Position numbers and translations under genes: made by a program. 64,000 bases of DNA from Escherichia phage vB_vPM_PD06. Positions within the stretch are counted from its first letter, which is position 1; each line of letters begins with the position of its first letter. Shown here piece after piece: positions 9,778 through 12,432 of this stretch. The stretch is from the sequence record NC_052653.1; one strand, given 5' to 3'. The notes under the pieces were generated by a model, which saw only the letters and a list, made by a program, of their open reading frames with translations, was not told the origin of the DNA and did no database searches.

Positions 9778-9854
9778 ATAATAAGTACACCACTGTAAGA
9801 AGCCTCAATGTGCTATTGACAGTTAACCAAGTCTACTCCTTGGATGGTGTTATT

Positions 9855-9929
9855 TGGTGCAGAGAGATGGTAACGATCCATCCTTTCTACCTTTTCAGGG
9901 TAGCACTAATCCGTCTCAGCTATCTCTGC
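9855..9929 (-). tRNA. tRNA-Phe (anticodon GAA)
   Basis: Acceptor GCAGAGA/TCTCTGC, anticodon arm CTACC-CTGAAAA-GGTAG, non-canonical T-loop ATCGTTA, CCA encoded. Confidence 0.65.
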
Positions 9930-9934
9930 AAATT

Positions 9935-10010
9935 TGGTCAGTGCGGCAGGACTCGAACCTGCGACCTGAAGCGTCCAAGGCTCCCACGCTACCAACTGCG
10001 CTACGCACTG
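9935..10010 (-). tRNA. tRNA-Pro (anticodon TGG)
   Basis: Acceptor CAGTGCG/CGCACTG, anticodon loop CTTGGAC, T-arm GCAGG-TTCGAGT-CCTGC, CCA encoded. Confidence 0.8.
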
Positions 10011-10017
10011 TAAATCT

Positions 10018-10092
10018 TGGCTGGAGATCTAGGAATCGAACCTAGTCATCACGACTTCAAAGGCCGTTGCCTTCCCACTAGGCTAATCTCCA
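10018..10092 (-). tRNA. tRNA-Gln (anticodon TTG)
   Basis: Acceptor TGGAGAT/ATCTCCA, anticodon arm ACGGC-CTTTGAA-GTCGT, T-arm CTAGG-TTCGATT-CCTAG, CCA encoded. Confidence 0.8.
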
Positions 10093-10523
10093 ATAAATTA
10101 CTTCAGTGTTACCACAAAGTGACGAACTGCTTTTCGTGCAGCAGAAGCCAGAGGCTTAGCATACTTAAGTTCATCTTTTTCCATTATAAATTCTCTTTTA
10201 AATGAAAATGCAGGACTTATTGGCATTGCCTGCGCAAGCCCTCAAGGGGAACATAGGTTTTTGGATATTTAACGACCAGGATAACCATAAACCCGTCATC
10301 ATTCACATTCAAGAGGTACACCATAAAACTGCCGGGGTCTTAAAACTATAATGATTCGCAAATCATTAATCAGACAGTTCGATGGCTCCTCGATTTTAGC
10401 TCACACTAAGGCAGTGAATCTCCAATAAACTAAAAAATCACTTAAAAAGAACCGCTAGAGTTTGAAGGAGAAAACCATGAGCGAAAAGAGAAATTTTCTC
10501 TAGCGATTCCATTTAAATAATCT

Positions 10524-10598
10524 TGGAGCGAGTAACAGGACTTGAACCTGCACCTGGAGGGTGGAAACCTCATATGCTACCATTAACACTATACCCGC
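10524..10598 (-). tRNA. tRNA-Gly (anticodon TCC)
   Basis: Acceptor GCGGGTA/TACTCGC, anticodon loop TTTCCAC, T-arm GCAGG-TTCAAGT-CCTGT, CCA encoded. Confidence 0.75.
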
Positions 10599-10653
10599 TT
10601 AACAATATTACTCTAACATACTATTAGCCCCTTTGTCAAGAGGCTTTTGATAC

Positions 10654-10983
10654 TTATTTTAAAATAGTAGATGCACCACGTCTGTTTAGATATGCAATAG
10701 TAAAGTCCAAATCACCTATTTCTTCAGGTTCCCACTGACCTTCTAAGCCATAACAAGAACAATGATATGCGTGTACTTCATAAAACAAAGATGTTTTCAT
10801 ATCATAAAAATAAACGTGAGATTCACCTTCATAATATGCACAATCATAAGTGGCAGAAAGAATTACAATGTTATCCTTATCTAACTCTACTTCATAATAT
10901 CTTTCAACATCTTCAATATCATCAAAACCATCGAAAACATTGATATTAAAATATTTCTCTAACTCTTTTTCTGTCACATACAC
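10654..10983 (-). CDS. Hypothetical protein embedded in tRNA array
   Basis: 109-aa ORF between tRNA-Gly and tRNA-Thr; Cys/Tyr-rich; no motif recognised. Confidence 0.5.
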   Translation of the reverse strand: MYVTEKELEKYFNINVFDGFDDIEDVERYYEVELDKDNIVILSATYDCAYYEGESHVYFYDMKTSLFYEVHAYHCSCYGLEGQWEPEEIGDLDFTIAYLNRRGASTILK

Positions 10984-10990
10984 TCCTTTA

Positions 10991-11065
10991 GAGTTAAAAT
11001 TGGTGCTCCCACAAGGACTCGAACCCTGATAAGTTGCTTACAAGGCAACCGTAATAGCCGTTATA
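10991..11065 (-). tRNA. tRNA-Thr (anticodon TGT)
   Basis: Acceptor GCTCCTA/TGGGAGC, anticodon arm GTTGC-CTTGTAA-GCAAC, T-loop TTCGAGT, CCA encoded. Confidence 0.8.
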
Positions 11066-11071
11066 CGATAG

Positions 11072-11148
11072 GAGCAATACTTGGACTCGGCAGGATTCGA
11101 TACCTGCAATTCCAGAAGCCTCTTGGCGACTGGGGGTTTACCTTAACT
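11072..11148 (-). tRNA. tRNA-like element, identity undetermined
   Basis: Acceptor GGACTTG/CGAGTCC pairs well; T-arm-like GCAGG-TATCGAAT-CCTGC with 8-nt loop; no canonical anticodon arm found by hand; CCA not encoded. Confidence 0.3.
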
Positions 11149-11155
11149 CTACAAG

Positions 11156-11240
11156 TCCATAATTCTGGCGATGGATCAAGGATTTGAACCTTGCTAGAAC
11201 TTTCGTTCACGGATTAACAGTCCGTCGCCCAACCACTAGG
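11156..11240 (-). tRNA. tRNA with anticodon GTT (Asn-type) and long extra arm
   Basis: Acceptor GATGGAT/ATCCATC, anticodon arm ACGGA-CTGTTAA-TCCGT, 15-nt variable region containing hairpin GAAC-GAAA-GTTC, T-loop TTCAAAT, CCA encoded. Confidence 0.55.
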
Positions 11241-11247
11241 CCAATCC

Positions 11248-11334
11248 ATCTTTAATTTGGTGCAGGTAGTTGGACTCGAACCAACGAAGCCCCGAAGGGC
11301 AAGAGATTTACAGTCTCCAGCAATTGCCGCTATG
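11248..11334 (-). tRNA. tRNA-Tyr (anticodon GTA)
   Basis: Acceptor GTAGGTA/TACCTGC, anticodon arm GGAGA-CTGTAAA-TCTCT, long variable arm, T-loop TTCGAGT, CCA encoded. Confidence 0.8.
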
Positions 11335-11339
11335 CGATA

Positions 11340-11415
11340 CCTACGTGTTTGGTACATCGTGAAGGATTCGAACCTTCGACCTTGGAGTTAAAAGCACCTT
11401 GCTCTACCAACTAAG
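11340..11415 (-). tRNA. tRNA-Lys (anticodon TTT)
   Basis: Perfect acceptor ACATCGT/ACGATGT, D-arm GCTT-AGTTGGTA-GAGC, anticodon loop CTTTTAA (stem has two mismatches), T-arm GAAGG-TTCGAAT-CCTTC, CCA encoded. Confidence 0.6.
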
Positions 11416-11559
11416 CTAACGATGTATAAATTATCTTTAAAATAGCCAGTGTTTGCGGCACTTAGCTATGAAGTATTGGGGTATCGGTAAAGTGGTTACC
11501 GCCACTTGCCGAAAGTTTACTCTGCTAAAGTAAGATTACAAGCTACATTAAAGATAACT

Positions 11560-11645
11560 TGGCGGTAGATGTAGGACTTGAACCTACACGCCGTTTCCGA
11601 CGACAGTTTAGCAAACTGTTGTGGCTACCATTTCACCAATCTACC
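11560..11645 (-). tRNA. tRNA-Ser (anticodon GCT)
   Basis: Acceptor GGTAGAT/ATCTACC, anticodon arm ACAGT-TTGCTAA-ACTGT, long variable arm, T-loop TTCAAGT, CCA encoded. Confidence 0.8.
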
Positions 11646-11653
11646 GTTCTTAA

Positions 11654-11806
11654 TTATTCAAAACAACCGGAATCTTTTTGTTCTGCTTTTACCATACGAA
11701 TATTTTTACCATCTTCAGATTGTTGAAGATTAGAATACTCATAAACAACTTTATTATCTACAATCTTAACTCCGGTAACAACCTGTCCAATAGTTTTATA
11801 ATTCAT
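11654..11806 (-). CDS. Small hypothetical protein
   Basis: About 50-aa ORF from ATG (MNYKTIG...) with AGGAG upstream; the longer track ORF would overlap tRNA-Ser. Confidence 0.35.
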   Translation of the reverse strand: MNYKTIGQVVTGVKIVDNKVVYEYSNLQQSEDGKNIRMVKAEQKDSGCFE

Positions 11807-11824
11807 AAAGCTCCTAGTTGAATT

Positions 11825-11914
11825 TGGAGGAAGATAATGGAGTCGAACCATCACCGTATCGCTACAATGGGCCAGGGTTCAAACCTGGTTGCGCACCGCT
11901 GCGCCCTACCTTCC
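11825..11914 (-). tRNA. tRNA-Ser (anticodon TGA)
   Basis: Acceptor GGAAGGT/ATCTTCC, anticodon arm CCAGG-TTTGAAC-CCTGG, long variable arm, T-arm GATGG-TTCGACT-CCATT, CCA encoded. Confidence 0.7.
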
Positions 11915-11975
11915 CGTTATCATACTTTAAATCTAACATAAAACTATCTTGCTTGTCAAGTAGTTTTTAAAACTT

Positions 11976-12057
11976 TTTGGTCGGGGTGACAGGATTCGAA
12001 CCTGCATACTCCAATTACTCGGTTAACGCCTGATTAGAAGTCAGGTGAGATACACCC
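11976..12057 (-). tRNA. Atypical tRNA-like gene, possibly Arg (TCT)
   Basis: Perfect acceptor CGGGGTG/CACCCCG, T-arm GCAGG-TTCGAAT-CCTGT, CCA encoded, hairpin CCTGA-CTTCTAA-TCAGG; no room for a normal D-arm. Confidence 0.4.
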
Positions 12058-12239
12058 CGTTTTCACAGTAACTATAACAAAAAACTAAGTGAATGTCAAG
12101 ATATTTTTACTAAAATTATTATTTAAATTGAAGCCTAGTTATGGAATCGAACCATATTTCGTATTTAGTTAGACAAAGCGGTCTAACATATTTTTCAGGC
12201 TTTGATGGCCTCGGAATTACCAAATACCCTACTAGGCGT

Positions 12240-12325
12240 TGGTGCAAGTGGAGGGATTCGAACCCTCAATCATTTAAGCGTTGCGTTTTAAGCACAATGT
12301 GTATCACCAATTCCACCACACTTGC
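12240..12325 (-). tRNA. tRNA-Leu (anticodon TAA)
   Basis: Perfect acceptor GCAAGTG/CACTTGC, anticodon arm TTGTG-CTTAAAA-CGCAA, long variable arm, T-arm GAGGG-TTCGAAT-CCCTC, CCA encoded. Confidence 0.75.
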
Positions 12326-12356
12326 ATATAGGAGATGCATAGCATCTCCTTTTAAA

Positions 12357-12432
12357 TGGTGGTTCCCCAGGGTTACAATCCCTGCCCTCGACACTTATGA
12401 GGTGTGCGCTCTCGTCAGTGAGCTATGGAACC
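12357..12432 (-). tRNA. tRNA with CAT anticodon (Met or Ile2), non-canonical T-loop
   Basis: D-arm GCTC-ACTGACGA-GAGC, anticodon loop CTCATAA, T-arm CAGGG-ATTGTAA-CCCTG, acceptor GGTTCCA/GGGAACC, CCA encoded. Confidence 0.65.

What the first reader, a model, noticed from the sequence alone, without database searches (positions are those of the whole stretch)
9855..9929. tRNA-Phe and a CAT-anticodon tRNA with T-loops lacking the TTC signature
tRNA-Phe has T-loop ATCGTTA and the CAT tRNA at 12357-12432 has ATTGTAA, both missing the conserved T54-Psi55-C56 triplet although stems and acceptors pair well. This may indicate altered modification or ribosome and elongation-factor interactions.
Basis: seen in the sequence. 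Interest (0 to 1): 0.35.

Follow-up and report, generated by a model that had tools for sequence, protein, structure and literature searches.

The report
Phage tRNAs with flipped T-loop pair
Two tRNA genes of this phi92-like E. coli phage do lack the usual T-loop letters, but the changes come in matching pairs that should keep the fold, and the same flipped loop recurs in a few per cent of phage tRNAs, so they look like working tRNAs of a little-described variant type, not errors or dead genes.

Summary
The window is a phi92-like phage (Justusliebigvirus) with a minus-strand cluster of at least 15 tRNA genes. The loops read as reported: tRNA-Phe has AUCGUUA and the CAU tRNA has AUUGUAA. The other 13 tRNAs have UUCRANU. 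However, U55 is kept in both, and C56 is kept in Phe. What changed is a swap of the 54-58 pair (U-A to A-U) plus A at position 60. In the CAU tRNA, C56 became U and G19 became A.

These changes are compensated and conserved:
- The tRNA-Phe lineage occurs in T5-like, T4-like, Bacillus and Acinetobacter phages. Among 82 distinct viral members, 54/58 is A-U in 44, U-A in 21 and G-C in 2.
- Among 1109 other phage tRNAs, 39 have A54/U58 (Fisher p about 1e-55), and 34 of these have a purine at 60.
- U56 goes with GA rather than GG in the D loop.

Most likely both are functional tRNAs with an alternative, internally compensated elbow. They cannot carry m5U54. The CAU copy is the weaker case: no Rfam hit and a poor anticodon stem. 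I found no description of this loop class in the searchable literature. Why phages keep it is unknown.

The parts
9377..12432 (-). tRNA gene cluster of a phi92-like phage. It holds 15 ARAGORN tRNAs plus one more tRNA found only by Rfam. All 15 encode CCA.
9855..9929 (-). tRNA-Phe(GAA), 75 nt including CCA. D arm GCUGAGACGGAUUAGU, 4-nt variable region, anticodon at 9894-9896.
   Evidence: ARAGORN. Rfam tRNA 49.2 bits against a threshold of 29. The minimum-energy fold is essentially a cloverleaf, with register differences in three stems. 0 of 75 variable columns among 8 related genomes.
9871..9877 (-). T loop of tRNA-Phe: A54 U55 C56 G57 U58 U59 A60
   Evidence: The identical loop is found in homologues from five or more phage groups.
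9911..9912 (-). G18 G19 of the tRNA-Phe D loop, the partners of U55 and C56
   Evidence: read. Invariant in 82 family members.
12357..12432 (-). CAU-anticodon tRNA, 76 nt including CCA (Met elongator or Ile2 type; not an initiator). Anticodon at 12397-12399.
   Evidence: ARAGORN. No Rfam hit. 1 of 76 variable columns among 8 genomes. Compensated changes relative to two relatives.
12373..12379 (-). T loop of the CAU tRNA: A54 U55 U56 G57 U58 A59 A60
12415..12416 (-). G18 A19 of the CAU tRNA D loop (ACUGACGA). A19 can pair with U56, where the relatives have G19 with C56.
   Evidence: The same GA/U56 association is seen in other phage tRNAs.
12389..12390 (-). Extra nucleotide on the 3' side of the CAU tRNA anticodon stem (C43/G44). 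It gives either a C27.C43 mismatch or a bulged C. The two relatives lack it.
   Evidence: alignment A2; fold

Best explanation
Both genes are real, most likely functional phage tRNAs. They belong to tRNA lineages that circulate among phages and other mobile elements and carry an alternative but internally compensated T loop.

- The closing intraloop pair is flipped from U54-A58 to A54-U58.
- Position 60 is a purine instead of a pyrimidine.
- In the CAU tRNA, the outermost elbow pair G19-C56 is replaced by A19-U56.

The loop should therefore still fold into a T-loop-like turn, dock G18 and nucleotide 19 of the D loop, and give an L-shaped tRNA that E. coli enzymes can process and charge and that works on the ribosome.

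Two consequences follow.
- Necessary: these tRNAs cannot carry m5U54.
- Inferred from what is known of TruB recognition (recalled, not checked): they are probably poor TruB substrates.

Shown here: the sequences, their conservation, and the covariation of 54/58/60 and 19/56. Inferred: the 3-D geometry of the A54-U58 pair, expression, charging and use in translation.

Confidence is higher for tRNA-Phe (about 0.8) than for this copy of the CAU tRNA (about 0.55).
For: 1. The loops are fixed. Phe is 100% identical in 52 records and CAU in 48. Among 8 genomes about 97.5% identical, Phe has 0 of 75 variable columns and CAU 1 of 76, against 5.7% in the non-tRNA remainder (binomial P = 0.013 and 0.066).

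2. tRNA-Phe homologues with the same GGAUCGUUACC occur in Demerecviridae, Winklervirus, Herelleviridae and Acinetobacter phages, with different acceptor stems that still pair.

3. In 82 distinct viral members collected by a D-arm pattern that does not constrain the T loop, the cloverleaf is 96.6% paired against 65.7% in shuffles. All 7 acceptor pairs show double changes. The 54/58 combination is A-U 44, U-A 21, G-C 2, C.A 11, A.A 3 and G.A 1.

4. T5 tRNA-Phe (loop UUCAAUU) and its Epseptimavirus counterpart differ only at positions 52, 54, 57, 58, 60, 62 and 66.

5. In 1109 other distinct phage tRNAs, 39 have A54/U58, 18 have A54 without U58, and 2 have U58 without A54 (Fisher p = 1.7e-55). 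At least 17 isotypes are involved. Position 60 is a purine in 34 of 39 A-U loops and a pyrimidine in 994 of 1030 U-A loops.

6. For the 19-56 pair, tRNAs with C56 have GG in the D loop in 1132 of 1153 cases. tRNAs with U56 have GA in 9 of 10 and GG in 1 of 10. Two further tRNAs with AUUGUAA (Gly, Ala) also have GA. T5 tRNA-Ile1 has U56 with GA, and its RefSeq record notes that it works as an amber suppressor.

7. The CAU tRNA compared with its two relatives shows 7 pairs changed on both sides, including 19-56, and 94.7% of cells paired.

8. Both tRNAs keep U33, a 7-nt anticodon loop, A37, A73 and an encoded CCA.
Against: - There are no expression, charging or modification data.
- The CAU copy gets no Rfam tRNA hit.
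- The CAU copy has an A7.G66 mismatch and a mismatch or bulge in the anticodon stem, and its canonical anticodon stem is not the minimum-energy fold.
- The three single-base variants seen in other isolates are A73U, C62A and G22A, and the last two break stem pairs.
- Many T5-type members of the Phe lineage have two U.U mismatches in the anticodon stem (19 of 82).
- The collections were sampled by exact-pattern scans that stopped at 120 rows. The sequences are related by descent, so counts are not independent events.
Confidence: 0.7

Rival explanations
1. One or both genes are tRNA pseudogenes in decay. The odd T loops are damage that happens to persist because the genus is young.
For: - phi92 RefSeq flags tRNA-Phe as pseudo and calls the CAU gene a 'hypothetical tRNA'.
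- VEcB flags Phe as pseudo 'tRNA-Leu-GAA'.
- tRNAscan-based annotations omit the CAU gene.
- The CAU tRNA gets no Rfam hit and has a weak anticodon stem.
- Two of its three singleton variants break stems.
- The cluster does contain a decaying tRNA-like remnant at 11076-11165, with 26 of 90 variable columns.
Against: - The same loop is kept in phage families far apart, with compensated stems.
- The deviations are pairwise swaps, not random hits.
- Variability within the genus is as low as for the canonical tRNAs and below that of the non-tRNA remainder of the cluster (spacers and small ORFs).
- The pseudo flags reflect scoring models trained on canonical loops.
Confidence: 0.15
2. The flipped elbow is an adaptation, not a neutral alternative. 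It would make these tRNAs invisible to a host factor that reads the canonical T loop or elbow, such as a tRNA-cleaving defence or toxin, or TrmA/TruB-linked quality control. Alternatively it would protect them from a phage factor that attacks host tRNAs.
For: - The variant is enriched in viral versus cellular copies of the same tRNA-Phe lineage (44 of 82 against 8 of 78).
- It is enriched in phage clusters versus bacterial tRNA arrays (39 of 1109 against 11 of 1568).
- Phage tRNAs are documented to escape anticodon-arm nucleases by point changes (PMC10264068, PMC12409363).
Against: - No phage locus has more than 5 of its tRNAs (5 of 35; at most 4 of 10 as a fraction) with the variant, and here it is 2 of 15, so it is not a genome-wide self-mark.
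- No T-loop-directed defence nuclease of enterobacteria is known to me.
- T5 itself carries the canonical version of the same tRNA-Phe.
- The papers found on phage tRNA evasion discuss anticodon arms only.
Confidence: 0.12
3. They are tRNA-shaped RNAs with a non-translational job, for example a decoy, a primer, or an amino-acid donor outside the ribosome. The precedent is the non-proteinogenic tRNA-Gly of staphylococci, which also deviate in the T arm (recalled from memory).
For: Only the deviation from the universal T loop itself. The T5 record lists several stable tRNA-like RNAs of unknown function in its cluster.
Against: - The anticodon loops, discriminators and CCA ends are intact.
- The variant occurs in at least 17 isotypes, scattered among ordinary tRNAs.
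- The T stems are regular.
Confidence: 0.03

Closest known systems
Phage T5 tRNA-Phe (T5t19) and the wider tRNA-Phe lineage with D arm GCUGAGAYGGAUUAGC
   Same: Same D arm, 4-nt variable region, GAA anticodon, U59 and encoded CCA. The window's gene is a member of this lineage.
   Different: T5 has the canonical-type loop UUCAAUU. The window, Epseptimavirus, Winklervirus, Bacillus and Acinetobacter phages have AUCGUUA.
Eukaryotic cytoplasmic initiator tRNA T loop (A54, A60; A54-A58 purine-purine pair)
   Same: A at 54 in place of the otherwise universal U (PMC7912444). A at 60 (my recollection of the initiator consensus AUCGAAA). The phage data show the same A54 with purine-60 association.
   Different: The initiator keeps A58 (m1A58), whereas these tRNAs have U58. 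They are bacterial-virus elongator-type tRNAs. The CAU tRNA has G1-C72 and no run of three G-C pairs in the anticodon stem, and the cluster has a separate initiator-like tRNA at 9599-9677.
Generic T-loop motif, closed by a pyrimidine-adenosine trans Watson-Crick/Hoogsteen pair
   Same: A five-nucleotide turn closed by a 1-5 pair, with the next two nucleotides bulged. The C54.A58 members of the Phe lineage fit the Y-A rule (bioRxiv 10.1101/2022.12.26.521914).
   Different: Here the closing pair is A-U (with rare G-C), the reverse of Y-A. That survey reports a strong requirement for Y-A.
T5 tRNA-Ile1(GAU) and other phage tRNAs with non-G-C 19-56 pairs
   Same: U56 together with A19. The T5 record notes suppressor activity after an anticodon change. 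All four Watson-Crick combinations at 19-56 are seen in phage tRNAs.
   Different: T5 tRNA-Ile1 keeps U54-A58. The window's CAU tRNA combines both swaps.
Bacterial tRNA gene arrays (dense clusters of 10-30 tRNA genes)
   Same: The same tRNA-Phe D arm occurs in arrays of Blastocatellia/Pyrinomonadaceae, Planctomycetes and others, with about 19 tRNAs per 8 kb.
   Different: There the T loop is mostly canonical (U-A in 59 of 78, A-U in 8 of 78).

Membership tests
tRNA (Rfam RF00005, bacterial-type elongator) | Cloverleaf with 7-bp acceptor, 3-4-bp D, 5-bp anticodon and 5-bp T stems | tested here: met
   Phe has all stems paired. CAU has acceptor 6/7 (A7.G66), D 4/4, T 5/5 and anticodon 4/5 or a bulge.
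tRNA (Rfam RF00005, bacterial-type elongator) | Score above the Rfam gathering threshold (29 bits) | tested here: inconclusive
   Phe scores 49.2 bits, which meets it. CAU has no hit even at E<=10 on a 131-nt stretch, so it does not. ARAGORN calls both.
tRNA (Rfam RF00005, bacterial-type elongator) | U54 and A58 (reverse-Hoogsteen pair) in a 7-nt T loop closed by G53-C61 | tested here: not met
   The 7-nt loop and G53-C61 are present, but both tRNAs have A54 and U58. The letters covary as a pair.
tRNA (Rfam RF00005, bacterial-type elongator) | U55 with G18, and C56 with G19 (elbow) | tested here: inconclusive
   Phe has G18, G19, U55 and C56, so it meets this. CAU has G18 and U55 but A19 and U56: the letters are not met, but Watson-Crick pairing is kept.
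tRNA (Rfam RF00005, bacterial-type elongator) | Pyrimidine at 60 | tested here: not met
   A60 in both. A purine at 60 is typical of the A54-U58 class (34 of 39).
tRNA (Rfam RF00005, bacterial-type elongator) | U33, 7-nt anticodon loop, purine 37, discriminator and CCA end | tested here: met
   Phe loop is CUGAAAA and CAU loop is CUCAUAA. Both have A73 and an encoded CCA.
tRNA (Rfam RF00005, bacterial-type elongator) | Mature, aminoacylated and used in translation | not testable with these tools
   No expression or charging data are available.
Mobile-element tRNA-Phe lineage (D arm GCUGAGAYGGAUUAGC) | Exact D-arm motif UAGCUGAGAYGGAUUAG, 4-nt variable region, GAA anticodon, location in a tRNA cluster | tested here: met
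   The window sequence is row 1 of alignment A1. It is collinear with 81 other viral members.
Eukaryotic-initiator-type T loop | A54, A58 (m1A) and A60 in an initiator tRNA-Met | tested here: not met
   A54 and A60 are present, but position 58 is U. The CAU tRNA has G1-C72 and anticodon stem CACAC/GUGUC, so it has no initiator marks.
tRNA pseudogene | Loss of constraint: substitution rate like flanking DNA, and uncompensated stem damage | tested here: not met
   Variable columns are 0 of 75 and 1 of 76, against 5.7% in the non-tRNA remainder. Changes relative to the relatives are compensated. A caveat for CAU: singleton variants break stems.
tRNA-Ile2 (CAU read as AUA after lysidine) versus elongator tRNA-Met | TilS or MetRS identity elements; k2C34 | not testable with these tools
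   There are only hints. The relative in SSBI34 starts GGCCC like E. coli tRNA-Ile2 (memory). AUA is 15% of Ile codons in the window's long ORFs. A blastn search against E. coli genomes found nothing.

The most novel reading that the evidence does not exclude
A54-U58 with a purine at 60 (optionally with a non-G-C 19-56 pair) is a distinct tRNA elbow architecture enriched in mobile elements. Phages maintain it because it escapes a host activity that reads the canonical T loop or elbow, such as an undiscovered tRNA-directed defence nuclease or toxin, or TrmA/TruB-coupled surveillance. That would extend phage tRNA immune evasion from the anticodon arm to the elbow.
Probability: 0.12. Interest if true: 0.75.

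Novelty: new variant of a known kind. Interest (0 to 1): 0.5.

Why it matters
U54-A58 is treated as a universal feature of cytoplasmic tRNAs, with the eukaryotic initiator as the textbook exception (PMC7912444).

A natural, recurrent, compensated flip of that pair offers several things:
- It occurs together with a switch at position 60 and with free Watson-Crick variation at 19-56. That gives a ready-made set of variants for asking what the T loop really has to be.
- It identifies tRNAs that must lack m5U54.
- It explains why annotation pipelines flag or miss these genes. phi92 and VEcB mark Phe as pseudo, and tRNAscan-based records omit the CAU tRNA.
- It raises the testable question of whether the elbow, like the anticodon arm, is a battleground between phages and hosts.

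For this phage alone the practical message is modest: count both genes as tRNAs.

Tried and rejected
- **Alternative register or sequencing error.** Rejected. No TTC register exists, and the sequences are identical in about 50 independent genomes.
- **Association of the flipped loop with variable-loop or D-loop length.** None found.
- **Genome-wide marking of a phage's own tRNAs.** Rejected. At most 5 of 35, or 4 of 10, tRNAs per locus carry the variant.
- **Functional proof from T5.** T5 has no A54-U58 tRNA. Its Phe is the canonical version, so T5 gives experimental support only for the A19-U56 elbow.
- **Widening the CAU family.** A D-arm pattern and an anticodon/variable-region pattern found almost no further members: one tRNA-His with the same D arm and AUCGUAA loop, and two canonical Ile2-like tRNAs.
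- **Assigning Met versus Ile2 identity by similarity to E. coli tRNAs.** The blastn search found nothing.
- **Literature.** Eight searches found no description of A54-U58 phage T loops. The key mutational paper (Zagryadskaya et al. 2003, NAR 31:3946) is not in the held library, so I could not check whether A54-U58 was recovered there.
- **Neighbouring genes in phi92.** No tRNA-modifying or tRNA-processing enzyme lies next to the cluster.

Full report
**Context**

The window is a phi92-like Escherichia phage (Justusliebigvirus, Stephanstirmvirinae). The 3.2 kb around the finding is 97-99% identical to phi92, AV123, muut and many others.

The finding lies in a minus-strand tRNA cluster at 9377-12432. 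ARAGORN tRNAs there. Rfam adds one more at 11981-12059. In phi92 the cluster sits between NAD-salvage genes and the lysis/terminase block. No tRNA-modifying enzyme lies nearby.

**Observation**

On the tRNA strand, tRNA-Phe (9855-9929) reads:
GCAGAGA UA GCUG AGACGGAU UAGU G CUACC CUGAAAA GGUAG AAAG GAUGG AUCGUUA CCAUC UCUCUGC A CCA.

The CAU tRNA (12357-12432) reads:
GGUUCCA UA GCUC ACUGACGA GAGC G CACAC CUCAUAA GUGUC G AGGG CAGGG AUUGUAA CCCUG GGGAACC A CCA.

The other 13 tRNAs of the window all have UUC[G/A]A.U.

In standard numbering the picture is more specific than 'TTC missing':
- Phe has A54 U55 C56 G57 U58 U59 A60.
- CAU has A54 U55 U56 G57 U58 A59 A60.
- U55 is kept in both and C56 is kept in Phe.
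- The changes are U54->A together with A58->U, and a purine at 60.
- In the CAU tRNA, C56->U goes with a D loop that reads G18 A19 instead of G18 G19.

The Phe stems are all paired, and its minimum-energy fold is essentially the cloverleaf, with register differences in three stems.

The CAU tRNA is less tidy:
- It has an A7.G66 mismatch.
- It has one extra nucleotide in the anticodon stem, giving either C27.C43 or a bulged C.
- Its minimum-energy fold does not use the canonical anticodon stem.
- It gets no Rfam tRNA hit even at E<=10.

**Not an error, not drift**

Phe is 100% identical in 52 phage records and CAU in 48.

I aligned the cluster from eight genomes that are about 97.5% identical. 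Phe has 0 of 75 variable columns and CAU has 1 of 76, like the other tRNAs. The non-tRNA remainder has 96 of 1694, or 5.7%. The binomial P values are 0.013 and 0.066.

The three CAU singletons seen in other isolates are A73U, C62A and G22A. The last two break stem pairs. That counts mildly against full constraint on this copy.

**The tRNA-Phe lineage**

Blastn finds homologues well outside the genus:
- Epseptimavirus, Novosibvirus and Myunavirus (T5-like)
- Winklervirus (T4-like)
- Caeruleovirus (Bacillus, Herelleviridae)
- Acinetobacter phages

They share the D arm UAGCUGAGAYGGAUUAG and mostly the T-arm core GGAUCGUUACC. Their acceptor and anticodon stems differ but still pair. Two relatives have UUCGAUA or CUCGAUA instead.

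To sample without constraining the T loop, I scanned IMG/VR for the D-arm motif.
- 82 distinct, collinear 72-nt sequences give a cloverleaf that is 96.6% paired, against 65.7% in shuffles.
- All seven acceptor pairs show double changes.
- The 54/58 combination is A-U 44, U-A 21, G-C 2, C.A 11, A.A 3 and G.A 1.

T5's own tRNA-Phe is the canonical version (UUCAAUU). It differs from its Epseptimavirus counterpart only at positions 52, 54, 57, 58, 60, 62 and 66. That amounts to a concerted change of the T loop inside an otherwise identical tRNA.

The same motif in GTDB genomes hits mostly dense tRNA arrays, with about 19 tRNAs per 8 kb. These are in Blastocatellia/Pyrinomonadaceae, Planctomycetes and others. 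There the loop is mostly canonical: U-A in 59 of 78 and A-U in 8 of 78.

**A general class**

I ran ARAGORN on all viral loci fetched, excluded the Phe lineage, and obtained 1109 distinct well-parsed tRNAs.
- U54/A58: 1030
- A54/U58: 39 (3.5%)
- A54 without U58: 18
- U58 without A54: 2
- Fisher p = 1.7e-55

The 39 belong to at least 17 isotypes with unrelated D arms. Their main loops are AUCGUUA and AUCGUAA.

Position 60 is a purine in 34 of the 39, and a pyrimidine in 994 of the 1030 canonical loops. So 54, 58 and 60 change together.

There is no link to variable-loop length. No locus has more than 5 of 35, or 4 of 10, such tRNAs. In bacterial arrays the class is rarer, at 11 of 1568.

These counts come from related sequences and pattern-based sampling. 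They show association, not numbers of independent events.

**The 19-56 pair**

Among the phage tRNAs, C56 goes with GG in the D loop in 1132 of 1153 cases. U56 goes with GA in 9 of 10 and with GG in 1 of 10. A56 and G56 tRNAs mostly have GU and GC respectively.

Two more tRNAs with the window's exact loop AUUGUAA, a Gly and an Ala, also have GA.

T5 tRNA-Ile1 has U56 with GA. Its RefSeq record notes that it becomes an amber suppressor after an anticodon change, so such an elbow works in E. coli.

**The CAU tRNA**

Only two relatives were found outside the genus: Salmonella phage SSBI34 (Vequintavirinae) and Erwinia phage FBB1 (Roskildevirus). Both have AUCGUAA and G18 G19.

Across the three sequences:
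- Seven pairs change on both sides: 3-70, 4-69, 6-67, 28-42, 30-40, 50-64 and the tertiary 19-56.
- A54-U58, C15-G48 and the A7.G66 mismatch are constant.
- 94.7% of cells pair.

So the window's copy diverged under structural constraint, although it is the most eroded of the three.

It is not an initiator. It has G1-C72 and no run of G-C pairs in the anticodon stem. The cluster also has a separate initiator-like tRNA, annotated tRNA-fMet in one relative.

Met elongator or Ile2 could not be decided. AUA makes up 15% of Ile codons in the window's long ORFs.

**Explanation**

The best reading is that both are functional phage tRNAs with an alternative, internally compensated elbow. A54 pairs with U58, and a purine sits at 60. 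G18.U55 is kept, and 19-56 is kept either as G-C or as A-U.

- Shown: sequence, conservation and covariation.
- Inferred: the geometry of the pair, expression and charging.
- Necessary consequence: no m5U54.
- Likely consequence: poor recognition by TruB. This rests on my recollection that TruB needs U54, U55 and A58.

Why mobile-element tRNAs carry this class more often than cellular ones is open. Two readings remain. One is a neutral alternative spread by gene exchange. The other is an escape from a factor that reads the canonical elbow. I favour the neutral alternative, because only a minority of tRNAs per phage have it and T5 carries the canonical version of the same tRNA-Phe.

**Rivals**

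- Pseudogenes. Plausible only for the CAU copy.
- Defence evasion.
- A non-translational role.
- Artefact. Excluded.

**Comparison with the known**

Reviews describe U54 as universal, with the eukaryotic initiator (A54, with an A54-A58 pair) as the exception (PMC7912444). They describe the T-loop closing pair as pyrimidine-adenosine (bioRxiv 10.1101/2022.12.26.521914).

Work on phage tRNA escape concerns the anticodon arm (PMC10264068, PMC12409363). Eight full-text searches found no description of A54-U58 loops in phage tRNAs. The 2003 mutational study of the 54-58 pair is not held.

The genes themselves are already in GenBank. They are variously annotated as tRNA-Phe, pseudo, 'hypothetical tRNA' or tRNA-Met, or are missing.

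**Verdict**

They most likely represent a variant T-loop class rather than defects. It is a new variant of a known kind, of moderate interest (0.5).

Noticed in passing
window 11981-12059 (-): A tRNA-Arg(UCU)-like gene found only by Rfam (40 bits). It has just 4 nt where the D arm should be and a 20-nt extra region before a canonical T arm. ARAGORN misses it and phi92 does not annotate it. It has 1 of 79 variable columns among 8 genomes. AGA is 25% of Arg codons in the window's long ORFs.
   Followed up: partly
window 11076-11165 (-): A tRNA-shaped remnant between tRNA-Thr and tRNA-Asn. It has acceptor GGACUUG/CGAGUCC and T arm GCAGG-UAUCGAAU-CCUGC with an 8-nt loop. It has 26 of 90 variable columns plus indels among 8 close genomes, so it is probably a decaying tRNA.
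   Followed up: partly
window 12100-12235 (-): A stretch deleted in phi92 but present in the other 7 aligned genomes. It has a 7-bp acceptor-like pairing (GCCUAGU/ACUAGGC), a canonical T arm (UAUGG-UUCGAUU-CCAUA) and a 7-bp extra arm. No tool calls it a tRNA.
   Followed up: partly
window 11350-11425 (-), tRNA-Lys(UUU): It has 18 of 76 variable columns among genomes about 97.5% identical, while other tRNAs have 0-3. AV123 and PaulScherrer carry an allele with a different anticodon stem and D arm. The remaining genomes differ at positions 30-31 of the anticodon stem. This is reminiscent of escape from anticodon-arm nucleases such as PARIS AriB (PMC12409363).
   Followed up: partly
window 9599-9677 (-), initiator-like tRNA(CAU): Its anticodon is at position 37 because of a long D loop, and positions 1-72 are mismatched. 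It has 10 of 79 variable columns among relatives, mostly compensated changes in the T stem plus variation at nucleotide 1. It is annotated tRNA-fMet in phage PaulScherrer.
   Followed up: partly
L277 (phage T5, NC_005859 28210-28286): T5 tRNA-Ile1(GAU) has T loop UUUAAAU (U56) with a D loop reading GA (A19). The record notes suppressor activity after an anticodon change. In the phage tRNA sample, all four Watson-Crick combinations occur at 19-56.
   Followed up: yes
L146-L265 (GTDB genomes): The tRNA-Phe D-arm motif of this phage lineage lies in very dense tRNA arrays (mean about 19 tRNAs per 8 kb). These are in Blastocatellia/Pyrinomonadaceae, Planctomycetes, Kuenenia, Azoarcus and others, often on large chromosomal contigs. 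This links phage tRNA clusters and bacterial tRNA arrays.
   Followed up: partly
search hits H11-H14 (MG065639, MG065645, MG065656, MG065689): Records named 'Campylobacter phage' (host C. jejuni, unannotated) are about 97% identical to this E. coli phage tRNA cluster. They are probably mislabelled or contaminant phi92-like phages.
   Followed up: no
alignment A1; T5-like members of the tRNA-Phe lineage (e.g. L007, L277 13097-13171): 19 of 82 family members, including T5's own tRNA-Phe, have two adjacent U.U mismatches (28-42, 29-41) in the anticodon stem and G37 instead of A37. The window's copy has a perfect stem and A37.
   Followed up: no
L274 (phage VEcB) and L001 (phi92) annotations: The same tRNA-Phe gene is annotated as pseudo 'tRNA-Leu-GAA' in VEcB and as pseudo tRNA-Phe in phi92. 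The CAU tRNA is absent from tRNAscan-based annotations. So annotation of these variant-loop tRNAs is inconsistent across near-identical genomes.
   Followed up: yes
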